Assembly: GCF_037482545.1 (NCBI RefSeq)
Contig: NZ_JBBIAA010000001.1
Coordinates: 321,226-385,225, forward strand
Length of the DNA: 64,000 nucleotides
Reading direction: 5' to 3'
From: Pseudokineococcus basanitobsidens
GTDB taxonomy: Bacteria; Actinomycetota; Actinomycetes; Actinomycetales; Quadrisphaeraceae
Shown: positions 3,116 through 43,499 of the stretch, piece after piece
How the letters are laid out: each line of letters starts with the position of its first letter
Position numbering within the stretch: the first letter of the stretch is position 1
Made by a program: the position numbers and the translations under genes
The notes under the pieces: model-generated
Databases searched by the model: none
What the model saw: the letters and a program-made list of their open reading frames with translations, nothing else
What the model was told of the DNA's origin: nothing

Positions 3116-3730
3116 TCACGACCGGGCGAGCGGCCGGTCCCCGCGCGCCACCTCCGGCCGGCGGGCGACGAGCGCGGCGACGAGGAGCGAGGCCAGGAGC
3201 GCGCCGGTCGTCCCCAGCACCATGTCGCCGAGCGTGTCCGCGTAGGCGGTGGCCTCCTCGGGGCCGCCGCGGACGAAGGTCGCGTACTCGCCGACCTCCC
3301 ACACCAGCGCCGCCAGGCAGCCGCAGCCCGCGCCGAGCAGCACCCGCACCCACGTCGGCAGCGACCGCGGCAGCACCAGGGCCAACCCCGCCGCGAGCAG
3401 TCCCCAGTTGACCAGGTGCGCCGCGTCGTCGAACCACACCACGGCGTCGAAGAGGTCGAGCGCGTTACCCACGAGGTCGACCGCCCACGGCAGGCTGACG
3501 AGCAGGTCGGCGAGCGCGGGGAAGCGGACCGCGCGGCGCGCCCGGCGCCGCACGAGCGCCCACGCCACCGGCACGAGGAGCAGCCCCAGCGGGTAGACGA
3601 CGGCCCGTCCGGTCATCGCCTTGTCGGAGAACCGCTCCCAGCCGGGGAACGCGAGCGCGAGCGCCAGGAGCCCGAGCACCACGACCTTGACGGCGAGGTC
3701 GGCCACGAGGACGCGGCGGTCGGTGGTCAC
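3116..3730 (-). CDS. hypothetical integral membrane protein
   Basis: 204 aa with 5-6 hydrophobic helices and high GC3. It is co-oriented with the upstream secreted protein. Confidence 0.5.
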   Translation of the reverse strand: MTTDRRVLVADLAVKVVVLGLLALALAFPGWERFSDKAMTGRAVVYPLGLLLVPVAWALVRRRARRAVRFPALADLLVSLPWAVDLVGNALDLFDAVVWFDDAAHLVNWGLLAAGLALVLPRSLPTWVRVLLGAGCGCLAALVWEVGEYATFVRGGPEEATAYADTLGDMVLGTTGALLASLLVAALVARRPEVARGDRPLARS

Positions 3731-5759: not shown

Positions 5760-5857
5760 GGACCGTAGGAGCCGGTGCTCGGCGTGTCAACGGAGTGCAG
5801 GACATCGCTCACCGCCGGTCGGGCGACGGGCTCGGGTGGAGGCCCCCGTCCGTCCTG

Positions 5858-5900
5858 TTGACGCCGGCACGGCGGCGTCCTAGCGTGTGAAATCGATTCC
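5858..5900 (+). promoter_or_regulatory. promoter (TTGACG-N17-TAGCGT) with adjacent GAAATCGATTCC operator-like 12-mer
   Basis: -35 TTGACG at 5858..5863, -10 TAGCGT at 5881..5886, and the 12-mer at 5889..5900, 36 bp upstream of the ATG at 5937. The 12-mer is identical to 19417..19428. Confidence 0.5.
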
Positions 5901-5936
5901 TCCGGCGCTGCCGGACCCGACGACGGGAGGTCGACG

Positions 5937-7295
5937 ATGACCCCGAGCTCGTCCCCGGGCGGTGGGCCGACGCGCCGCGCCGTCCTCGGTGGTGCCGTGG
6001 GTGCCCTCGCGACCGCGGCGTTCGCCGGGTGTGGCCGCAGCGGCGCGGGAGGCGACGGCCGACCGCTGGAGTTCTGGCAGTTCTACGCGCCGCAGTCGCA
6101 GACCCAGCCCGACCTCGCGGCCCAGAACGAGTGGTTCCTCTCGGCCGTCTCCGACTGGAACGCCGCGCACCCCGAGCAGGTGCGGCCCGTCTTCATCCCC
6201 AACTTCACCGATCCCTCGAACACCCGCCTGGCGACCGCCTTCGCCTCCGGCAGCGGCCCGGACGTGTTCCTCATCAGCCCGGGTGACTTCCTGCGCTACT
6301 ACAACGGCGGCGCGCTCCTGGACCTGCGTCCGTACATGGAGGCCGAGGCGGTCGACGACTTCATCGGCGAGGTGCTGGCGACGCGGGTCGTGGGGGACGG
6401 CGTCTACGCGCTGCCGATGGAGGTGGAGCCGCTCGTCATGTTCTACAGCCGCCCCGCGTGGGAGGCAGCCGGGCTCAGCGAGGGTGACATCCCGACGACG
6501 TGGGACGCGATGCTCGACGTCGCCGAGCGACTCACGACGCCGCAGCAGTCGGGGCTCGTCTTCGAGACGACGCCCGGCTACTTCCAGAACTTCACCTGGT
6601 ACCCGTGGCTCTGGCAGGGCGGCGGGGACGTCGTCGACCCGCGGACGCAGCAGGCCACCTTCGACAGCCCGGCGGCACGCCAGGCGCTGGATCTCTTCGG
6701 GTCCGCGATCCGGCGCGGGGTGGCGCCGCGGACCCTGCCGGCAGCGGGCGACGTCGCCGGCGCCTTCGCCGAGGGGTATGCGGCGACCTGGCAGTCGGGG
6801 ATCTGGCAGGTGGCCAACTTCCGCGCCAACCAGCCGGAGTTCGACTTCGGGGTCTTCACGCTGCCGACACCTCCCGACGGTGTCCCCCGGACGGTCCTCG
6901 GCGGGTGGGCCTGGTGCGTCAACGCGCGGGGACGGGACCCCGACGCGGCCGCCCGCTTCGTCGTCGAGACCATCGGCAGCACCTCGGACGCCTCCGTCGA
7001 GCGCCTCGTGCAGTGGTGCTCGGTGGCCAAGACGGACATGCCCCCACGGCAGTCCGTGGACCGGCGGATGCGGGCCGCCGGCGTCTACGACGACCCGGTC
7101 ATGGGCTTCTTCCGCGAGCAGGCGCTGCCGACCGGCAGGGGGGAACCGCGGTACCCACCGGTCCTCTACAAGGCGGTGTCCAACGCCATCCAACGGGTGC
7201 AGGCGGCCGGCGCCTCACCGGCCGAGCAGGCCGCCGAGGCCCAGGCGGCGGTCGAGGCCTTCCTGCGGACCTACGACGGAGGTTCCCTGGTATGA
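5937..7295 (+). CDS. sugar ABC transporter substrate-binding lipoprotein (CUT1 family)
   Basis: 452 aa. Has a signal peptide plus lipobox (AAFAGC) and the solute-binding family 1 fold. Leads an operon with two permeases. Confidence 0.85.
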   Translation: MTPSSSPGGGPTRRAVLGGAVGALATAAFAGCGRSGAGGDGRPLEFWQFYAPQSQTQPDLAAQNEWFLSAVSDWNAAHPEQVRPVFIPNFTDPSNTRLATAFASGSGPDVFLISPGDFLRYYNGGALLDLRPYMEAEAVDDFIGEVLATRVVGDGVYALPMEVEPLVMFYSRPAWEAAGLSEGDIPTTWDAMLDVAERLTTPQQSGLVFETTPGYFQNFTWYPWLWQGGGDVVDPRTQQATFDSPAARQALDLFGSAIRRGVAPRTLPAAGDVAGAFAEGYAATWQSGIWQVANFRANQPEFDFGVFTLPTPPDGVPRTVLGGWAWCVNARGRDPDAAARFVVETIGSTSDASVERLVQWCSVAKTDMPPRQSVDRRMRAAGVYDDPVMGFFREQALPTGRGEPRYPPVLYKAVSNAIQRVQAAGASPAEQAAEAQAAVEAFLRTYDGGSLV

Positions 7296-33549: not shown

Positions 33550-34413
33550 ATGGAGAAGCTCAGCAGTGGAAGCAGGTCACCGTCGCGGGGGGACCGGACC
33601 CGGCGGTGGGTGGTGCTCGGCGCGGCCGTCGTCGCGGTCGTCGTGTCGACGGTCGGCTCGGGGGCCTTCGGCGGCACGCCGGTCGACGAGGCGGCGGGCG
33701 GGGCCCTGTCGGCGACGGCCACGCTCGTGGCCCCCGCCGGGCCGGCCTTCTCGATCTGGGGGGTGATCTACGCCGGGCTCGTGGCGTACGCGGTCTGGCA
33801 GCTCGTCGCGGCCAGGCCCGACGACGCCCGGCAGCGCGCGGCGGGCTGGTGGCTCGTCGCGTCCCTCCTGCTCAACGCCGCCTGGATCACCGTCGTCCAG
33901 GCCGGCTCCGTGGGCGTGTCCGTCGTCGTCATCGCCGCGCTCGCCGCCGTCCTCGGCGTCGCCCTCGCGCGGCTGCAGCGCACGGAGCCCCGTGGGTGGC
34001 CGGAGGCGCTGCTGGTCGACGGCGTCACCGGGCTGTACCTCGGCTGGGTCCTCGTCGCGACGGTGGCGAACGTCTCCGCGTGGCTCGCGCAGGCGGGCGT
34101 CGGCGGCCTCGGGCTCGGCGAGGCCACCTGGGCGGTCGTCGTGCTCGTCGTCGCGGCGGCGATCGGGGTCGGCGTCTGCCGGGGCACCGGGCGCCTCGCG
34201 CCCGCCCTGTCGCTCGGGTGGGGGCTGGCGTGGGTCGCGGTCGGGCGCTCCTCCGGGCCGGACTCCTCGGCGGTGGTCGCCGTCGTGGCCGCGGTGCTGT
34301 CCGTCGCCGTCGTGGCCGCGGTGCTGTCCGTCGCCGTCGTGGTGGCGGGCGTGGCCGCGCGGGCCCGACGCGCGCGGACGACGACCGCCCGCCGTCCCGC
34401 GCGCGTCTCCTGA
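33550..34413 (+). CDS. TspO/MBR-like tryptophan-rich membrane protein (tentative)
   Basis: Divergent from the MarR gene. Polytopic and Trp-rich (FSIWGVIYAGLVAYAVWQL; WITVVQAG). The 3' part contains a 27-bp tandem duplication. Confidence 0.45.
   Translation: MEKLSSGSRSPSRGDRTRRWVVLGAAVVAVVVSTVGSGAFGGTPVDEAAGGALSATATLVAPAGPAFSIWGVIYAGLVAYAVWQLVAARPDDARQRAAGWWLVASLLLNAAWITVVQAGSVGVSVVVIAALAAVLGVALARLQRTEPRGWPEALLVDGVTGLYLGWVLVATVANVSAWLAQAGVGGLGLGEATWAVVVLVVAAAIGVGVCRGTGRLAPALSLGWGLAWVAVGRSSGPDSSAVVAVVAAVLSVAVVAAVLSVAVVVAGVAARARRARTTTARRPARVS
34276..34340 (+). repeat. 27-bp tandem repeat (about 2.4 copies) gtcgccgtcgtggccgcggtgctgtcc
   Basis: Read directly. It is in-frame and encodes VAVVAAVLS x2 in the C-terminal tail of the membrane protein. 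Confidence 0.8.
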
Positions 34414-35311: not shown

Positions 35312-37687
35312 GTGCCGTCGGTCCTCGTGCTCGTCGCCCTCCTGCTCGCGGGCCTCGTGGGACCGGTGGTGGGCCCGGTAGTAGGCCCGGTAGCAGGCCC
35401 GGTGGTGGGACCGGTGGTGGGTGAGGGCCCGGCGCAGGCGCGCGCGACGGGGGACGCGCGCGGCGTCCCCGGGCCGGTCGTCCTCGTCGGTGTCCCCGGG
35501 CTCCGGTGGGCGGACGTGACGCCGGTCGACGCGGACGGGCAGCCGCTGGCGCAGGAGGTCCAGGAGGGCGAGGGCCCCTCCGGCGTGCCGCAGCGTGCGG
35601 CGTCGACGCCCGTGCTCGGCGCGCTCCTGCGTGACGCCGGCGTCGGCGACGTGGCGGTCCGCGGCGTCACCTCGAGCGCGTGCCCCGCCGACGGCTGGCT
35701 GGCGCTCTCGTCGGGCTCGCGGGCCCTCGACCCGCGCCCGGGCATGGAGGTGGCCGCCGCCGACGGGGCGGCCACCGAGCCGGACCCCCAGGAGGTCCTC
35801 ACCCGCTGCACGGCCCTGGCCGAGCCCCGGGACGGCGTGGTGGGGCGCTGGCCCGTCTACGAGGCCGCCGTCGCCGAGCAGGACTACGACGCCCGGCTCG
35901 GGCTGCTCGGCGACGCCCTCGAGGACGCCGGCGTCGCCGCGGCGTCGGTCGGGCCGGGCGCCGCCGTGGCGCTCGCGAGGTCGGACGGGTCGCTGGCCGG
36001 CCCGCACGTGGACCGCCCGCAGGGCGCCGACGACCTCGGCGCCGCCGTCGAGGGGCTCCTGACCGACGGCGCCGGGCTCGTCGTCGTCGACGCCGGCAGC
36101 CTGCTGGCGGACGCCCGCCCGGACGACGACGGCGGCGGCGTGGTGCCCGAGGAGGCGGCCGCCGCCACGGTCGAGGCCCTGGACGCCCGGGTCGGCGCCG
36201 TCCTGGCCGCCGTCCCCGACGACGCGACCGTCCTCGTCGCGAGCACCGCGGACGCGACGGCGACGGCCCACCTCGGCGCCTTCGCCGCCGTGGGGCCGGC
36301 GGCGGGCGGTGTCGCGGACGCCTACGGCGGCACGCTCGTCGGCTCGCTGTCGACCCGCCAGGACGGGCTCCTGCAGACGACGGACCTGGCGCCCACGCTC
36401 CTCGACGCGCTCGGGGTCGAGGGGCCGGGCGGGCTGGTCGGGGCGCCGGTGCTGCCCGTGGACGCCGGGCTGGACGCCGAGGAGCGCCGCGCCGTGGTGC
36501 TCGACCTCTCGCGCGCCGCCCTCGAGGTCCGACCGGTGGTCGGGCCGTTCTTCTACGTGCTCTACGGCTCGCAGCTGCTGCTGTACGGCGCCGGCGTGCT
36601 GGCCCTGCGTCGCCGCTGGGGCGGGCCGTACGGGCGCCGCCGGGTCCTGGCGTGGCTGCGGCGGGTCTCCGTCGTGTCGGCGTCCGTGCCCGTCGCGACC
36701 TTCCTCGCCGGCCTGCTGCCGTGGTGGCGGAGCGACGCCTCCGCGCTCGTCCTCGTCCTCGCCGTCGCCGCGTGGACCGCCGTCGTGGCCGCGCTCGCCC
36801 TGCTGGGGCCGTGGCGGCGCGGGGTGCTCGGTCCGCTCGGGGTGGTGGCGGGCACGACGGCGCTCGTCCTCGCCGTCGACGTCGTGACCGGCTCGACCCT
36901 CCAGCTCTCCAGCCTCATGGGCCCGAACCCGATCGTGGCGGGCCGCTTCTACGGGCTGGGCAACCCGCCGTTCGCGCTCTTCGCGACCGGCTGCCTGCTG
37001 CTCGCGACGGCGCTCGCCGACCGGCTGCTGCGCAGCGGCCGCGCCCGGTGGGCCGTCGCCGTCGTCGCGCTCCTCGGCGCCGCGGCGGCGGTGCTCGACG
37101 GGACCCCGGGCCTCGGGAGCGACTTCGGCGGCCCGCCCGCGATCGTCCCGGCCTTCGCCGTCCTGGCCCTGCTCGTCGCCGGCGTGCGCATCACCTGGCG
37201 GCGCGTCCTGCTCATCGGCGGGGGCACCCTCGTCGTGATGTCGCTGCTGGCCGTCCTCGACTACGCGCGCCCGCCGGCGGACCGCACCCACCTGGGCCGC
37301 TTCGTCGAGACCGTGCTCGACGGCGGGGCGCTGGACGTCGTGGGCCGCAAGCTCGCCGCCAACCTGTCGGTGCTGACGGGCAACCCCCAGGGCCTGCTCG
37401 TGCCGGTCGCGGCCCTCTTCGTCGCGCTGGTGCTGCTGCGGCCGGGGGCGTCCGGGCCGCCCGCGCTGCGCCGGGCCTTCGACCGCACCCCGGCGCTGCG
37501 GGCGGGCTTCGCGGCCTGGCTGGTGCTCGTGCTCATCGGCTTCGCCGTCAACGACTCGGGGACGTCGATCCCGGCCGTCGCCGCGACGCTGATGGTCCCG
37601 CTGCTCACCGCCGCCGGGGCCCGGGCGCTCGAGGACGACGAGGCCGGCGCGCCCGCGACGGCACCGGTCGAGCGCCTGCGCGCCTGA
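35312..37687 (+). CDS. large membrane protein: N-terminal exported domain plus C-terminal polytopic domain (function unknown)
   Basis: 791 aa. A signal-like N-terminus is followed by a (GPVV)5 repeat, a soluble domain of about 400 aa and at least ten C-terminal TM helices. Confidence 0.6.
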   Translation: MPSVLVLVALLLAGLVGPVVGPVVGPVAGPVVGPVVGEGPAQARATGDARGVPGPVVLVGVPGLRWADVTPVDADGQPLAQEVQEGEGPSGVPQRAASTPVLGALLRDAGVGDVAVRGVTSSACPADGWLALSSGSRALDPRPGMEVAAADGAATEPDPQEVLTRCTALAEPRDGVVGRWPVYEAAVAEQDYDARLGLLGDALEDAGVAAASVGPGAAVALARSDGSLAGPHVDRPQGADDLGAAVEGLLTDGAGLVVVDAGSLLADARPDDDGGGVVPEEAAAATVEALDARVGAVLAAVPDDATVLVASTADATATAHLGAFAAVGPAAGGVADAYGGTLVGSLSTRQDGLLQTTDLAPTLLDALGVEGPGGLVGAPVLPVDAGLDAEERRAVVLDLSRAALEVRPVVGPFFYVLYGSQLLLYGAGVLALRRRWGGPYGRRRVLAWLRRVSVVSASVPVATFLAGLLPWWRSDASALVLVLAVAAWTAVVAALALLGPWRRGVLGPLGVVAGTTALVLAVDVVTGSTLQLSSLMGPNPIVAGRFYGLGNPPFALFATGCLLLATALADRLLRSGRARWAVAVVALLGAAAAVLDGTPGLGSDFGGPPAIVPAFAVLALLVAGVRITWRRVLLIGGGTLVVMSLLAVLDYARPPADRTHLGRFVETVLDGGALDVVGRKLAANLSVLTGNPQGLLVPVAALFVALVLLRPGASGPPALRRAFDRTPALRAGFAAWLVLVLIGFAVNDSGTSIPAVAATLMVPLLTAAGARALEDDEAGAPATAPVERLRA
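35359..35421 (+). repeat. 12-bp tandem repeat x5 encoding (GPVV)n
   Basis: Five units of ggaccggtggtg/ggcccggtagta, in-frame at the N-terminus of the large membrane protein. Confidence 0.8.
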
Positions 37688-38572: not shown

Positions 38573-39841
38573 ATGCCGGACCCGTCGTCCTCCTCGGCCC
38601 CCGACCACGCAGCGGCCTCGCGCGGCGTCGGCAGCGAGGTGGGCGCGCTGCGGACGGTCGTGCTGCACCGGCCCGGCCCCGAGCTGGCCCGGCTGACGCC
38701 GCGGAACAACGACCGCCTGCTCTTCGACGCGATCCCGTGGGTGGCACGGGCGCAGGAGGAGCACGACGCCTTCGCCGAGGTCCTGCGCGGGCGCGGCGTC
38801 GACGTCCTCTACCTCACGGACCTCATCGCCGAGGCGCTCGAGGTCCCCGCCGCCCGGGAGGAGTCGGTCGCTGCGGTGCTGGCCGACCCGTCGCTCGGGC
38901 GTTCCCTGGGGGGACGCGTGGGCGCGCACCTGCACTCGTTGGCGCCGGCGGACCTCGCCGACGCCCTCGTCGCCGGACTGCGCCTCGACGAGCTCGACGT
39001 CGCCCGCCCCGAGCGCGAGCCCGGTCTCGTGGCCGCGCTGCGCGCCGCGGGGGACTTCGTCGTCGAGCCGCTGCCGAACCTGCTCTTCACGCGTGACTCC
39101 TCGGCGTGGGTCGGCGGCTCCGTCGTCGTCTCGTCGCTGGCGATGCCGGCCCGGCACCGCGAGACGTCGCTGACGCGCGTCGTCTACGCCCACCACCCGC
39201 GCTTCGCCGGGACCGAGCTGCTCTACGAGCCCGGGCTCGAGCACGTCGAGGGCGGCGACGTCATGGTGCTCGCCGACGGCGTCCTCGCGGTCGGCACGGG
39301 GGAGCGGACGACGCCCGCGGGCGTGGAGCGCCTGGCGGAGCGGGCGTTCCGCAGCGGGGCGGCGCGGTGCGTCCTCGCGGTCCCCGTCGCCCAGGAGCGC
39401 GCGACCATGCACCTGGACACGGTCTGCACGATGGTCGACGTCGACCAGGTCGTGATGTACCCCTCGATCGCGCACTCCCTCGAGGCCTACGCGCTGACGC
39501 CCGTCGACGAGCACGACCCCGGGGCGGGGGTGCACGTCGGCGCCGCGCGGCCCTTCCTCGCCGCCGCCGCGCAGGCCATGGGCATCGACGAGCTGCGCGT
39601 CGTCGACACGGGCCTCGACGAGGTGACCGCCGAGCGCGAGCAGTGGGACGACGGCAACAACACCCTGGCGCTGGCGCCGGGCGTCGTCGTGGCCTACGAG
39701 CGCAACACCCGCACCAACGCGCGGCTCGCGGCGCACGGCGTCGAGGTCCTGCCCATCCGCGGCTCCGAGCTCGGGTCCGGCCGCGGCGGCCCCCGGTGCA
39801 TGAGCTGCCCGGTCGTGCGAGACCCGCTGCCGAGGACCTGA
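38573..39841 (+). CDS. arcA: arginine deiminase
   Basis: 422 aa ending in the catalytic-cysteine motif [18 protein letters not shown]. The amidinotransferase fold runs throughout. Confidence 0.85.
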
Positions 39842-39861
39842 CCCGAGCCGGACGGCGCCGG

Positions 39862-40100
39862 GACGTCGCCGAGGTGTGGACGCGGCGGTCCGTTGTGCGC
39901 GAGAAGTCGCCGAAGTGCGGGTGGGGCGGTCTGTTGTGCGCGAGAAGTCGTCGAAGTGTGGGTGGGGCGGTCCGCTCAGCGCGAGAAGTCGTCGAAGTGC
40001 GGGTGGGGCGGTCTGTTGTGCGCGAGAAGTCGTCGAAGTGCGGGTGGGGCGGTCTGTTGTGCGCGAGAAGTCGTCGAAGTGCGGGTGGGGCGGTCGCCCC
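39862..40100. repeat. 41-bp tandem direct repeat, about 5.8 units (minisatellite)
   Basis: The unit gcgcgagaagtcgtcgaagtgcgggtggggcggtctgttgt recurs at 39896, 39937, 39978, 40019 and 40060 with occasional point changes, plus a degenerate leading copy. There are no intervening spacers and 41 is not a multiple of 3. It fills the convergent intergenic gap. Confidence 0.9.
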
Positions 40101-40101
40101 G

Positions 40102-41107
40102 TCAGCGCAGGGTGACCTGCCGGGAGACGACGCCCGCGCGGGCGCGGCGCTCGTCCAGGGTGAGCGGGTCGGTGACGGCCAGCGCCTCGTCGAGGGCGTC
40201 CCGCAGCGCGGCGGCCGGCTCCTCGACGTCGTCGGCGACCGCGCCGTGCGCCAGGTCCCACACGGGGACGACGAGGCCGTGGGAGCGGAAGGCACCGACG
40301 TACCGCGTGCCCTCGCCGAGGCCGTCGCGGCCCGCGGCGTGCAGCCGGGCGAGGGCGTCGAGCAGGGGTTCCTCGTCCTCGGTCATCGCCCAGCGCAGGT
40401 GGGTGCGCTCGCCGATCCGGCACCAGTAGGCGCCCTCGACGGTGGACAGCCGCTCCGTGGGCACGACGGCGGCGTCGGCCCGGGCCATGGACTCGCCGAC
40501 GACCCCCTCGGGCTCGGCGCCCTCGGGCAGCCAGAAGCCGAAGCCCTCGTGCACGCGGACGTCCAGCGGCCGCGAGAGGTCGAGGAGGTCCTGCAGCCGC
40601 GGGGTCGCCGGCGTGACGTCGGGCCGCTGCGCGAGCTCCTCGCCCGGCCCCAGGTCGAGGACGGCGAGGAGCGCGGCGGCGAGGTCGCGGCTCGGGTCGC
40701 CGCTGGAGCCCGGCGACTGCAGGCCCAGCATCCGCTCGCCGTCGGCCCGGTGCAGACCCGGCCAGGCCAGCGGCAGGATCGTCGCGAGCGTGACGTCGGC
40801 GCCCCCGTGCCCGTCGGCCGGGTGCCCGTCGGCCAGCTTCTCGGCGGGCAGGTTCTCAGCGGGCACGTGCAGCGACGCCGTCGCGGCCGGGACCACCTCG
40901 CGCAGGCAGACCCAGTCGGCCTCGCCGGGCAGGCCCTCGAACGGCCGGCGGACGATCTCCGTCGCCGCGGCGCGGGCGGCGCGCCCGTGGCACAGCTTGT
41001 AGCGCTTGCCCGACCCGCACGGGCAGGGCTCGCGGGGGCCGACGACGGGCACGTCCTGCACCGCGGTCGGGCCGGTCGGGCGTCGTGCGGGGGACCTCTT
41101 CGCCATG
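40102..41107 (-). CDS. SEC-C motif ([14 protein letters not shown]) domain protein, DUF5926-like
   Basis: The N-terminus carries a SEC-C zinc-binding motif and the remainder is a conserved actinobacterial domain of unknown function. The maximal ORF runs to 41259. Confidence 0.65.
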
Positions 41108-41171: not shown

Positions 41172-41639
41172 TTAGAGGACGGGGCGTCGCCGGCGGGTCG
41201 GTCCGCCGAGGGCGGCCCAGACGGTGCGGCGCCCCTCGTCGTCCTCGACGACCCCCCACTCGTGGGCGAGGGAGCGCACGATCCGCAGGCCGCGCCCGGA
41301 CGTCGCGAGCGGGGAGGGGCGCTGGGGGCGGACCTCCTGGGGTGACCCGCCGTCGGTGACCTCGACGTCGACGACGTCGCCGCGGACCTGCCAGCGCACG
41401 AGCACGCGGCCGTCCTCGTCCGGCCGCGCGTGGCGCAGCGCGTTGCCGAGCAGCTCGCTGACGACGACGCTCACCTCGTGCGCCAGGTCGTCGTCTACCC
41501 GGCCGGCCACGTCGGCGGTGACGGTGCGCCGGGCGACGGGCACGGCGCCCGGGCGGTGGGCGACGGCGACGGCGCGGGCGTCGCCCCGCTGCCGCGAGTC
41601 GAGGACCGCCGGTGCGGTCGTCGGCGTGGCCACGGACAT
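41172..41639 (-). CDS. HATPase_c anti-sigma regulatory factor (RsbW-like Ser/Thr kinase)
   Basis: [24 protein letters not shown]...TDGG...SGRGLRIV is a GHKL ATPase signature. 155 aa from the ATG at 41639. Confidence 0.6.
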
Positions 41640-41769
41640 GGGTGCCTCCAGGGATCGCGCGCAGGGAGGGTCCCTGCCGAGGACCTGCCGACCTCGGTCG
41701 CCGTCCTCCGCGGGACAGACTGGACCCCGTGGCGCCGACCGGTCCAGCCCCCCGGAGCCCAGGGGAGAG

Positions 41770-41799
41770 GCGGGCGCGGGCGCGGGCGCGGGCGCGTGC
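41770..41799. repeat. GCGGGC hexamer x4-5 in divergent intergenic region
   Basis: Read directly. Lies between the RsbW-like gene and the sigma-factor gene. Confidence 0.7.
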
Positions 41800-41916
41800 G
41801 AGGACGGGGACACGGGCGCGGGCACGGACGGGCGCCGGGACGCCGCAGCCCCGGACGGCGGGCGCCGCCGTCCCACCACCCCCTCACACGGCGCGGGCGC
41901 CGCGCGTCCTCCTCCC

Positions 41917-42444
41917 GTGAGCGCACCCCCCTTCGCCCTCCTCGTCGAGGAGCACTGGCGCGACGTCGCCCGGCTCGCCCGGGCGCTCGCCGGCCCGGTC
42001 GACGGCGACGACGTCGCCCAGCAGGCGTGGGCGCAGGCGCTGGCGGCCTACCCGCCGGCGGGCCCGTTGCGCGACCCCCGCGCCTGGTTGCTCGTCATCA
42101 CGAGCCGCTGCGCGACCGACGTCCACCGCGCCCGGGCGCGGCGGCCGACGCCCGTGGAGGAGGTCCCCGACGTGCCCGCCGGCGGGGCGGACCCCGCGCT
42201 CGGGGAGCTCGCGGAGGCCGACCCGGTCCTGTGGGACGCCGTCCGCGCGCTCCCCGGGCGGCAGCGGACGGCGCTGGTGCTGCGGTACGTGGCGGACCTG
42301 GACCACGCGGGCGTCGCCGTCGCCCTCGGGACGACGCCGGGCGCGACACGGCGCCTGGTCAGCGACGCGCTCGGTGCGCTGCGCCGGGCGCTGGCGGAGG
42401 AGCAGGACGTGGACGGACGGACGACGAGCAGGAGGAGCCGGTGA
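41917..42444 (+). CDS. ECF-type RNA polymerase sigma factor
   Basis: Sigma-70 region 2 (DDVAQQAWAQA) and region 4 (RQRTALVLRYVADLDHAGVAVALGTTPGATRRLVSDALGALR). GTG start. Confidence 0.65.
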   Translation: MSAPPFALLVEEHWRDVARLARALAGPVDGDDVAQQAWAQALAAYPPAGPLRDPRAWLLVITSRCATDVHRARARRPTPVEEVPDVPAGGADPALGELAEADPVLWDAVRALPGRQRTALVLRYVADLDHAGVAVALGTTPGATRRLVSDALGALRRALAEEQDVDGRTTSRRSR

Positions 42445-43151
42445 CGACCCACGAGACGACGGGCGGGCCGACCGAGGGGCCGACCGAGGGGCCGACGGAG
42501 GGGCCGACGCGGGGGCAGGGCCCGCTCCCGCGGACCGCGGACGTCGAGGCGCGCCTGCGGGCCGACCGTGGTGCGCCGCTGCGGCGTCCACGGGTCCCGG
42601 TGACCGCCGAGGACGGGGCGGACGTCGCGTTCGCGGTGCGGGAGACCGAGATCGGGCGCGTGCTCCTGGCGGTAGGACCGGCGGGGGCGCTCGTGGCCTC
42701 CACCTTCGTCGCGGACGACGTCGCGCTCGAGCGGGTGCTGCGGCGTCTCGCGGACGCCGTCTCGCCCCGCGTCGTCGAGGCGCCGGGGCGGACGTCCGCG
42801 GTCGCCGACCAGCTGGCCGAGTACCTCGCGGGCGAGCGGCGCGGCTTCGACGTCGTCGTCGACCTCGCGCTCGCGACCCCCTTCCAGCGCGGGGTCCTCG
42901 AGCGCCTCCGCGGGGTCGGCTACGGGCAGCGGACGACGTACGGCGCGATCGCCCGCGACCTGGGACGTCCGAGCGCCTCCCGTGCCGTGGGCGCCGCGCT
43001 CGGCGCCAACCCCGTCTGCGTCGTCGTGCCGTGCCACCGCGTCGTCGCGGGCAGCGGTGCCCTCACCGGGTACGCCGGCGGGCTCGAGGCGAAGCGGCGC
43101 CTGCTCGGTCTCGAGCGGGGCCCGGAGGCGGCGCCGGCGTCGCCTGCCTAG
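42441..43151 (+). CDS. ogt: methylated-DNA--protein-cysteine methyltransferase
   Basis: The C-terminal PCHRVV active-site motif and the Ogt N-domain are present. There is an N-terminal (TEGP)3 extension of about 40 aa. GTG overlaps the sigma-factor stop (GTGA). Confidence 0.8.
   Translation: MTTHETTGGPTEGPTEGPTEGPTRGQGPLPRTADVEARLRADRGAPLRRPRVPVTAEDGADVAFAVRETEIGRVLLAVGPAGALVASTFVADDVALERVLRRLADAVSPRVVEAPGRTSAVADQLAEYLAGERRGFDVVVDLALATPFQRGVLERLRGVGYGQRTTYGAIARDLGRPSASRAVGAALGANPVCVVVPCHRVVAGSGALTGYAGGLEAKRRLLGLERGPEAAPASPA
42468..42515 (+). repeat. 12-bp tandem repeat x4 encoding (TEGP)n
   Basis: ccgaccgagggg units, in-frame in the ogt N-terminal extension. Confidence 0.8.
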
Positions 43152-43208: not shown

Positions 43209-43499
43209 GTGAGCGAGCAGCCCGACGTAACCCCCGACCCCGACGCGGAGCCGTCCGCGGCGGTGACGCCCGGTGCGGGCGACGACGACCGGGCCGACGA
43301 CCGGGCCGACGACCGGGCCGACGACCGGGCCGACGACCCGGGCGCCCGGCCGGTGGACGAGGACGCCCCCGACGTCACCCAGCACGTCGGGCGCGACGAG
43401 TCCGTCGAGCGGGTCGGCGACGAGGACGCCTACGAGCGGGCCGAGGGGCGCGCCGGTGCCACGGGCGCCACGGGCGTCGCCCCGCCGACCCGGCCGTGA
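43209..43499 (+). CDS. small acidic low-complexity protein (hypothetical)
   Basis: GTG is preceded by GAGAGGA. High GC3 in this frame. Contains a (DDRA)4 repeat. 96 aa. Confidence 0.35.
   Translation: MSEQPDVTPDPDAEPSAAVTPGAGDDDRADDRADDRADDRADDPGARPVDEDAPDVTQHVGRDESVERVGDEDAYERAEGRAGATGATGVAPPTRP
43284..43343 (+). repeat. 12-bp tandem repeat x5 gacgaccgggcc encoding (DDRA)n
   Basis: Read directly. Confidence 0.8.

What the first reader, a model, noticed from the sequence alone, without database searches (positions are those of the whole stretch)
39862..40100. 41-bp tandem repeat array (about 5.8 units) filling the convergent gap between arcA and a SEC-C-motif gene
The repeats are head-to-tail with 95-100% identity. 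The unit length is not a multiple of 3 and there are no spacers. One variant unit ends in TCAGCGCGAG, echoing the 3' end of the adjacent gene (TCAGCGCAG). This suggests the array arose by slippage of the gene terminus. Such minisatellites, like mycobacterial MIRU/VNTR loci, are hypervariable and can act as terminators or phase-variable elements. The unit also contains GC-rich G-tracts (GGGTGGGGCGG).
Basis: seen in the sequence. Interest (0 to 1): 0.6.

Follow-up and report, generated by a model that had tools for sequence, protein, structure and literature searches.

The report
Interspersed 41-bp minisatellite between convergent genes
The 41-bp tandem array is real; it is one recently expanded copy of an apparently undescribed family of about 41-bp intergenic repeats scattered through Pseudokineococcus genomes, comparable to mycobacterial MIRU loci, and no specific function could be shown for it.

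Summary
Window 39862-40095 carries five full 41-bp units plus a 29-nt partial unit. They match the consensus at 33, 40, 36, 41 and 41 of 41 positions. The array fills 90% of the 260-bp gap between arcA (+) and a DUF5926/SEC-C gene (-) of Pseudokineococcus basanitobsidens.

The unit did not arise from the gene terminus. Related units with a shared core, GSACTTCGNNGNCTTCT, and a 41-42-bp period sit at the same gap in most related lineages. They also sit at unrelated gaps: four consecutive gaps and one further locus in P. marinus, and two more contigs of one metagenome sample. In older arrays the 21-nt core is conserved (identity 0.81-1.0) while the 20-nt linkers have decayed to near chance (0.25-0.55). 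In the window whole units are near-identical, which indicates recent slippage.

Several relatives carry an inverted arm that forms a long hairpin. The window array has none, and no intrinsic terminator or Rfam match was found. Its DUF5926-sense transcript is 48% C and 20% G and folds unusually poorly, which resembles a Rho loading site. That is an inference, not a result.

Verdict: an ordinary kind of element (interspersed minisatellite) from a new family. Interest is moderate.

The parts
39862..39902 (-). Unit 0, the arcA-proximal, most degenerate unit (33/41 to consensus)
39903..39943 (-). Unit 1 (40/41). Its core on the - strand is GCACTTCGGCGACTTCT
39944..39984 (-). Unit 2, the variant unit (36/41). 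Four clustered substitutions create TCAGCGCGAG
39985..40025 (-). Unit 3, identical to consensus (41/41)
40026..40066 (-). Unit 4, identical to consensus (41/41)
40067..40095 (-). Partial unit 5 (29/29). It holds the core plus a G-rich tract (C-rich on the - strand) and ends 6 nt from the DUF5926 stop codon. The same junction is seen in L001 and in the non-orthologous locus L104
38573..39841 (+). arcA (arginine deiminase), the left convergent neighbour
   Evidence: PF02274, E=1.3e-117
40102..41106 (-). DUF5926 family gene with a SEC-C motif (334 aa, identical to P0001 of Pseudokineococcus basanitobsidens), the right convergent neighbour. The array lies in the sense orientation of its 3' flank

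Best explanation
The array is one locus of an interspersed family of about 41-bp intergenic tandem repeats found across the genus Pseudokineococcus.

Each unit has two parts. The first is a core of about 21 nt, which reads GSACTTCGNNGNCTTCT(N4) on the strand that is sense to the DUF5926 gene here. The second is a linker of about 20 nt.

An element of this family has sat just downstream of the DUF5926 stop codon since before these lineages diverged, or was re-seeded there. In several relatives it includes an inverted arm that forms a long hairpin. In P. basanitobsidens the inverted arm is absent, and the direct unit was amplified recently to about 5.7 near-identical copies. The likely mechanism is replication slippage or unequal recombination (inferred).

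The array is non-coding and lies where the 3' ends of the two convergent transcripts would fall. It has no intrinsic-terminator structure. Most likely it behaves as a length-variable minisatellite with little or no locus-specific function.

Its one notable physical property is the DUF5926-sense transcript. That transcript is long, C-rich, G-poor and unstructured, which is the composition Rho uses to load. Any termination there would therefore be Rho-dependent rather than hairpin-dependent (inference only).
For: Shown by tool results:
- The array and its gene flanks are as described.
- The organism is P. basanitobsidens.
- Orthologous gaps show autocorrelation peaks at 41-42 bp: window 0.83, L001 0.49, L002 0.59, L005 0.60. 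TRF finds arrays in L002 (42 bp x 3.1) and L005 (41 bp x 3.9).
- L007 has a different downstream neighbour, yet carries two units whose 22-nt core is 21/22 identical to the window's.
- Non-orthologous arrays exist:
  - L004 1550-1694, 41 bp x 3.5, in a GT2/AAA_16 divergent gap.
  - P. marinus L068, with arrays in four consecutive intergenic gaps.
  - P. marinus L104, in an ABC-F/formamidase convergent gap, with three direct units plus an inverted unit abutting the stop codon. This is the same architecture as L001.
  - L147, 41 bp x 2.6.
- The core GSACTTCGNNGNCTTCT (at most 1 mismatch) occurs only inside arrays: 13 hits, against 0.05 expected per shuffled 64 kb.
- Core versus linker identity within arrays is 0.81-1.0 versus 0.25-0.55. 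In the window the linkers are 0.85 identical, which indicates recent whole-unit amplification.
- The window gap has no inverted repeat, whereas L001 (24 nt, 92%), L104 (16 nt, 94%), L008 (26 nt, 88%) and L002 (24 nt, 83%) each have one.
- Folding z-scores are +0.47 and +1.65 for the whole array, and +1.73 for a unit dimer on the - strand with an MFE of only -5 kcal/mol.
- No terminator-like or promoter-like site was found, and there are no Rfam matches.
- The - strand RNA is 48% C and 20% G. (C-G)/80 stays at or above 0.30 across 39887-40097. That value is above the window's 99.9th percentile (0.287), and this is the longest such stretch.
Against: - Dispersal is shown in relatives, not in P. 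basanitobsidens itself.
- The source genome could not be retrieved.
- Cores were partly used to find and register the arrays, so between-array core conservation is inflated by ascertainment. The within-array contrast between core and linker is not affected.
- Strong core conservation against decayed linkers suggests the core is under selection or is actively copied, which a purely neutral minisatellite does not explain.
- No strain-level copy-number data exist.
- The copy number in a short-read assembly may be collapsed or inexact.
Confidence: 0.7

Rival explanations
1. The array is a Rho-dependent termination zone. It supplies a long rut-like loading platform on the DUF5926 transcript and insulates the two convergent genes from each other. 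Under this view that role is why an element persists at this gap.
For: - The - strand RNA is 48% C and 20% G. The C-over-G excess is above the window's 99.9th percentile and extends over about 210 nt.
- That RNA folds worse than 194-197 of 200 shuffles.
- No intrinsic terminator lies in the gap.
- Arrays in the sense orientation downstream of genes in L002, L005, L007 and L068a/c are also C-rich.
- From established knowledge: rut sites are about 70-80 nt of C-rich, G-poor, unstructured RNA, and intrinsic terminators are scarce in high-GC Actinobacteria.
Against: - The composition is not conserved. L001 and L104 are balanced and use hairpins instead. L004b and L147 are G-rich on the core strand and lie upstream of genes.
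- rut sites are degenerate, so composition alone has low specificity.
- It does nothing for arcA, whose transcript through the array is G-rich.
- No transcript data are available.
Confidence: 0.2
2. The array is a phased set of binding sites. The 21-nt core is a sequence-specific recognition site for an unknown DNA- or RNA-binding protein. The sites are held at 41-42 bp spacing, about four helical turns, and the arrays act as binding platforms at many intergenic sites.
For: - Within arrays the core is conserved while the linkers are at chance similarity, and the period stays fixed.
- L002 was found by position rather than by core, and shows the same contrast.
- The core contains two CTTC half-sites 9 bp apart.
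- Tessaracoccus sp. SD287 has 41-bp arrays at two loci. Both share an invariant 22-nt core, GGCACATCGTTCACCAAGTGCC, but have locus-specific 19-nt linkers.
Against: - No candidate protein is known.
- The arrays occur in every kind of gap (3'-3', 5'-5', 3'-5'), with no functional theme among the neighbouring genes.
- Core maintenance could equally come from copying from master elements, as in mobile repeat families.
- Indels are rarer than substitutions, so a fixed period does not require selection.
Confidence: 0.15
3. The array arose locally by slippage of the 3' terminus of the DUF5926 gene.
For: - Unit 2 contains TCAGCGC, identical to the reverse-strand stop codon plus the last two codons.
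- Three of its four clustered substitutions move towards the terminus sequence.
Against: - Homologous cores lie beside unrelated genes in P. marinus and in metagenome contigs.
- The gene ends at the full-length end of the DUF5926 profile (264/264).
- My hand estimate for the echo arising by chance is about 0.1.
- The oldest-looking unit, unit 0, carries the standard TTGTGCGCGA form and not the variant.
Confidence: 0.05
4. The array is a structural element, either a G-quadruplex on the + strand or a hairpin terminator or REP-like palindrome.
For: - Each unit carries GGGTGGGG. Four long-loop G4 arrangements are possible, with loops of 1 nt, about 31 nt and 1 nt.
- Relatives have long inverted repeats at the same place.
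Against: - There is no canonical G4 motif.
- The window gap has no inverted repeat.
- Folding is no better than shuffled sequence, and no hairpin plus T-run was found.
Confidence: 0.05

Closest known systems
MIRU (mycobacterial interspersed repetitive units) / bacterial VNTR minisatellites
   Same: Both are 40-100-bp head-to-tail units in intergenic DNA of a high-GC actinobacterium. Both belong to a family present at several loci. Unit number differs between lineages, and the end units are degenerate.
   Different: - No sequence relationship was tested or is evident.
- From my own knowledge, MIRUs typically sit between co-directional genes of operons and carry short ORFs that overlap the flanking genes. 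This array sits between convergent genes, and its 41-bp unit cannot keep a reading frame.
- The core-plus-decayed-linker pattern is not, to my knowledge, a described MIRU feature.
REP / BIME / REPIN elements (including the GTAG- and CGTC-tagged families, PMC3733652)
   Same: - Both are short interspersed extragenic repeats, mostly downstream of genes and often clustered.
- Relatives of this array (L001, L104, L008, L002) hold inverted copies that form long hairpins, like REP doublets.
- The subfamilies carry GTAG (P. marinus) or CGTC at the same core position.
   Different: - The window units are not palindromic and the array contains no inverted copy.
- REPs are defined by a 5-13-bp stem in each unit.
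- No RAYT transposase link could be examined.
- That survey listed no actinobacterial families.
Pneumococcal BOX elements (boxA-boxB(n)-boxC)
   Same: Both are modular interspersed elements with a tandemly repeated internal module of about 45 bp, variable in number and flanked by ends that can pair. The L001 and L104 architecture (direct units plus one inverted terminal unit) is similar.
   Different: The phylum and sequence are different. The window copy lacks the pairing end. This comparison rests on my own knowledge and was not tested here.
Rho utilisation (rut) regions
   Same: Both are at least 80 nt of C-rich, G-poor, poorly structured RNA downstream of a stop codon.
   Different: rut sites are not normally built from exact tandem repeats. 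No termination data are available.

Membership tests
Interspersed minisatellite (MIRU/VNTR-like) | Head-to-tail units of tens of bp in non-coding DNA | tested here: met
   TRF gives period 41, 5.2 copies, score 375. The array lies wholly in the 260-bp intergenic gap.
Interspersed minisatellite (MIRU/VNTR-like) | Related units at several unlinked loci of a genome | tested here: inconclusive
   Met in relatives: P. marinus L068 (four gaps) and L104, and sample 3300025875 contigs L004, L005 and L147. In P. basanitobsidens only 64 kb could be read, and it holds one array.
Interspersed minisatellite (MIRU/VNTR-like) | Copy-number polymorphism between strains | not testable with these tools
   Only one genome of the species is available. 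Between lineages the orthologous gap holds about 6, 4, 3, 4, 2 or 0 units.
MIRU sensu stricto | Location between co-directional operon genes, with unit ORFs overlapping the flanking genes | tested here: not met
   The flanking genes are convergent, and the 41-bp unit is not a multiple of 3. The defining feature itself is taken from my own knowledge.
MIRU sensu stricto | Sequence similarity to MIRU consensus units | not tested
REP/REPIN | Each unit is an imperfect palindrome (stem 5-13 bp; PMC3733652) | tested here: not met
   The gap has no inverted repeat. Folding z-scores are +0.47, +1.65 and +1.73.
REP/REPIN | Association with a RAYT (Y1) transposase | not testable with these tools
   Whole genomes could not be searched.
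Intrinsic terminator | GC-rich hairpin followed by a T-run | tested here: not met
   No sites on either strand in 39000-41000.
Rho-dependent terminator (rut) | At least 70-80 nt of C-rich, G-poor RNA with little structure | tested here: met
   The RNA is 48% C and 20% G. The skew is above the window's 99.9th percentile over about 210 nt. The - strand folds worse than 197 of 200 shuffles.
Rho-dependent terminator (rut) | Rho-dependent 3' ends in vivo | not testable with these tools
   This needs Term-seq with and without bicyclomycin or Rho depletion.
CRISPR array | Repeats separated by unique spacers of similar length | tested here: not met
   The units abut with no spacers, and the whole 41-bp unit is repeated.
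G-quadruplex motif | Four G3+ tracts with loops of 1-7 nt | tested here: not met
   No canonical motifs. Four arrangements exist only if one loop of about 31 nt is allowed.

The most novel reading that the evidence does not exclude
The arrays of about 41 bp are not drifting minisatellites. They are a functional class of actinobacterial interspersed element: a sequence-specific core of 21-22 nt, kept by selection at a fixed phase of about four helical turns, with free linkers. Such arrays would serve as multi-site platforms for an unknown DNA- or RNA-binding factor, for example in nucleoid organisation, 3'-end formation or recruitment of a mobilising enzyme. The class would be shared by Pseudokineococcus and, in a related form (GGCAC-N12-GTGCC cores), by Tessaracoccus.
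Probability: 0.15. Interest if true: 0.65.

Novelty: new member of a known kind. Interest (0 to 1): 0.4.

Why it matters
On its own the array is a useful hypervariable marker for typing Pseudokineococcus isolates. It is also a likely cause of assembly breaks: two metagenome contigs end at or inside this gap.

The broader point is that this little-studied actinobacterial genus carries an apparently undescribed interspersed repeat family. The family has a fixed period of about 41 bp and a conserved core set against decayed linkers. Simple slippage does not predict that pattern. It points either to a copying mechanism or to a selected recognition site.

If the C-rich, unstructured transcript does load Rho, these arrays would give a simple, testable example of how high-GC bacteria with few intrinsic terminators end convergent transcripts.

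Tried and rejected
1. An exact 27-nt unit pattern in genome contigs gave 0 hits. Look-ups of the window's ArcA and of P0001 found no encoding contig. The source genome therefore could not be scanned, and strain comparison was impossible.
They returned mostly unrelated 42-bp or 39-bp coding repeats or chance matches. Only L068, L104, L147 and the Tessaracoccus loci L019/L061 were informative. Family abundance per genome could not be measured.
3. Rfam searches at a permissive threshold, on the window region and on eight related loci, found nothing at the arrays.
4. Coding potential was rejected. The 41-bp unit cannot hold a frame, and the period differs between relatives (41 or 42). The ORFs that cross the array are the frame-independent long ORFs typical of 76% GC DNA.
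5. A per-unit hairpin conserved across subfamilies was rejected. GGCAC-UUCG-GUGCC in L147 and L004b, and GCAC-N12-GUGC in L104 and L001, are not present in the window unit.
6. I compared the core by eye, from memory, with known actinobacterial operator consensus sequences (SOS box, CIRCE, ARG box, Rex). There was no convincing match, and this was not a tool test.
7. Literature searches for Pseudokineococcus or Kineococcus repeats and for actinobacterial interspersed repeats found no description of this family.

Full report
**Observation.** Tandem Repeats Finder gives 39884-40095, period 41, 5.2 copies, 92% matches, no indels and score 375. This is the top score in the window by a wide margin. 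They match the consensus GAAGTCGTCGAAGTGCGGGTGGGGCGGTCTGTTGTGCGCGA at 33, 40, 36, 41 and 41 of 41 positions. A sixth unit matches for 29 nt, to 40095. No other copy (at least 27/41) exists on either strand of the 64-kb window.

The flanking genes are arginine deiminase at 38573-39841 (+) (PF02274, E=1e-117) and a DUF5926 + SEC-C gene on the - strand. The DUF5926 match runs to the last position of the profile, so the gene ends normally at the stop codon 40102-40104. The array fills 234 of the 260 intergenic bases. The DUF5926 protein is identical to one from Pseudokineococcus basanitobsidens. The window is 76% G+C.

**Structure and known RNA families.** There is no Rfam match at a permissive threshold. 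No promoter-like or intrinsic-terminator-like site lies in 39000-41000. Folding of 39835-40115 is no better than dinucleotide shuffles on the + strand (z = +0.47) and worse than 197 of 200 shuffles on the - strand (z = +1.65). A two-unit - strand segment folds at only -5 kcal/mol (z = +1.73). The gap has no inverted repeat. The terminator-hairpin idea is therefore not supported for this array.

**The orthologous gap in relatives.** I used homologues of the DUF5926 protein to fetch their contigs.
- Convergent DUF5926/arcA pairs recur in L001 (strain 5B2Z-1), L002 (an uncultured Pseudokineococcus), L003 (strain 1T1Z-3), L005 and L006.
- The gaps are 178, 188, 39, 174 and 12 bp respectively.
- All three long gaps show an autocorrelation peak at 41-42 bp: L001 0.49, L002 0.59 and L005 0.60, against 0.83 in the window.
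- TRF calls arrays in L002 (42 bp x 3.1, 81%) and L005 (41 bp x 3.9, 80%).
- L003 and L006 have no array.
- L004's contig stops 15 bp after the stop codon and L008's stops inside the gap. Repeats that break short-read assemblies would produce this.
- L007 has a DUF5926 protein only about 70% identical and a different downstream neighbour. It still carries two units with the core GCACTTCGCCGACTTCTCGCGC, which is 21/22 identical to the window's - strand core GCACTTCGACGACTTCTCGCGC.
- On a neighbour-joining tree of the proteins, L007 is basal. L003 + L006 form an array-less clade. The window groups with L001, L002, L004, L005 and L008. The pattern fits either an old element with one loss or repeated seeding.

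**The family is interspersed.** A motif scan found a second array in L004 at 1550-1694 (41 bp x 3.5, 91%, core GCACTTCGGTGGC). It lies in the divergent gap between a glycosyltransferase gene and an AAA_16 gene.

It did return two loci of P. marinus NBRC 102111.
- L068 has arrays in four consecutive intergenic gaps: 163-289, 2247-2349, 3380-3481 and 5855-5960. Their periods are 41, 41, 39-41 and 42 bp. They surround an acyl-CoA carboxylase gene, a gene with only a sub-threshold Pfam match (a restriction-endonuclease-like domain) and a pyridine-nucleotide disulphide oxidoreductase gene.
- L104 has three direct units, GCAC(T/G)TCGTCGTCAGAGTGCC, followed by an inverted copy, TCTGACGATGAAGTGCGGGGGGTGGGGCG. 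The inverted copy abuts the stop codon of a formamidase gene that converges on an ABC-F gene.
- The L104 architecture, and almost the same sequence, is found in the DUF5926/arcA gap of L001.

The shared core GSACTTCGNNGNCTTCT (at most 1 mismatch) occurs 13 times in the Pseudokineococcus sequences held, always inside arrays. The expectation is 0.05 per shuffled 64 kb. It added L147, from the same sample as L004 and L005 (41 bp x 2.6).

Because homologous units lie beside unrelated genes, the unit cannot derive from the DUF5926 terminus. The TCAGCGC echo in unit 2 is a real string match, but only 3 of its 4 clustered substitutions move towards the terminus sequence. I estimate the chance probability by hand at about 0.1.

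**Anatomy of the family.** Within arrays other than the window's, the first 21 positions are 0.81-1.0 identical. The remaining 20 are 0.25-0.55 identical, which is close to chance for this base composition. Between arrays the values are 0.74 and 0.34.

There is a caveat. Cores helped to find and register the units, so the between-array figure is biased. The within-array contrast is not. L002, found by position alone, shows the same contrast.

In the window the linkers are 0.85 identical, so this array was amplified recently as whole units. Slippage or unequal recombination is the obvious mechanism (inferred).

Several relatives carry long inverted arms: L001 (24 nt, 92%), L104 (16 nt, 94%), L008 (26 nt, 88%) and L002 (24 nt, 83%, spanning the whole array). 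The window has none. The window copy is therefore a direct-only derivative of an element that elsewhere forms a hairpin between convergent genes.

**What it may do.** Nothing shows a function. The only distinctive physical property is on the - strand, which is sense to DUF5926. The RNA there would be 48% C and 20% G. The C-over-G excess is above the window's 99.9th percentile and runs for about 210 nt, the longest such stretch in the window. It is also unusually unstructured.

These are the textbook properties of a Rho loading site (my own knowledge). If transcription ends in this gap, I therefore infer that it ends by Rho and not by a hairpin. The property is not shared by all family members, so I rank this as a secondary possibility (0.2).

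A phased protein-binding array is the other live alternative (0.15). It rests on the conserved core, the free linkers and the fixed period of about four helical turns. The G-tracts give no canonical quadruplex motif.

**Comparison with known kinds.** The closest kinds are MIRU-type interspersed minisatellites, REP/BIME/REPIN elements and pneumococcal BOX elements.
- The array meets the generic minisatellite features.
- It fails the operon and ORF features specific to MIRU.
- It fails the per-unit palindrome that defines REPs (PMC3733652).
- I found no description of this family in the searchable literature.

I file it as a new member of a known kind, with moderate interest.

Noticed in passing
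L019 1046-1290 and L061 1111-1390 (Tessaracoccus sp. SD287, two contigs): Both contigs carry 41-bp arrays of 6-7 units. They share an invariant 22-nt core, GGCACATCGTTCACCAAGTGCC, with palindromic ends, but their 19-nt linkers are locus-specific. The core-plus-linker layout and period match the Pseudokineococcus family, and the core is 16/22 identical to the L104 core. Part of that similarity was forced by the scan pattern.
   Followed up: partly
L147 3080-3187; L004 1550-1694: In these arrays the core reads GGCACTTCGGTGCC, a 5-bp stem closed on a UUCG tetraloop, and the linkers are G-rich. Both arrays lie upstream of genes, not downstream. This looks like a structurally distinct subfamily.
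   Followed up: partly
L004 5742-5890 and 1715-1760: Other intergenic tandem arrays occur in the same metagenome contig. One is 17 bp x 8.8 (GCCGACCCGTCGCCCGG), spanning the end of the HATPase_c_2 gene and much of the gap before DUF5926. The other is 10 bp x 4.6 (TCTGGCAGCG), close to (about 20 bp from) the 41-bp array. Intergenic DNA of this lineage seems generally rich in tandem repeats.
   Followed up: no
window 42457-42516: A 12-bp repeat of about 5 copies (CGACGGAGGGGC) reads as (GPTE)n in the long + ORF 41430-43151. That ORF's C-terminal part contains a PCHRV motif typical of methylated-DNA-protein-cysteine methyltransferases. Orthologous loci have a PF01035 gene next to a sigma-70 gene at this position.
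   Followed up: no
window 43283-43343, 41770-41827, 35357-35421, 34276-34342, 2267-2342: Further short tandem repeats: 12 bp x 5 at 97%, 6 bp x 9.7, 12 bp x 5.4 (reads as VGPV repeats), 27 bp x 2.5 at 100%, and 16 bp x 4.8. I did not check whether they are coding or variable.
   Followed up: no
L001, L002, L003, L004, L006 upstream of DUF5926; window 41172-41879 (-): Synteny is conserved. A small HATPase_c_2 (anti-sigma-factor-like kinase) gene always lies directly upstream of DUF5926 on the same strand. In most loci a sigma-70-type gene plus a PF01035 gene lies beyond it. This suggests DUF5926 belongs to a conserved regulatory neighbourhood.
   Followed up: no
L244 3480-3800: A metagenome contig (71% GC) has two neighbouring 41-bp arrays, with unit GGCGG.CC.AGAGCCGTCGGA.GCCGCCGAAGTACGAGGTC. 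The organism is unknown, and any relation to the family is unclear.
   Followed up: no
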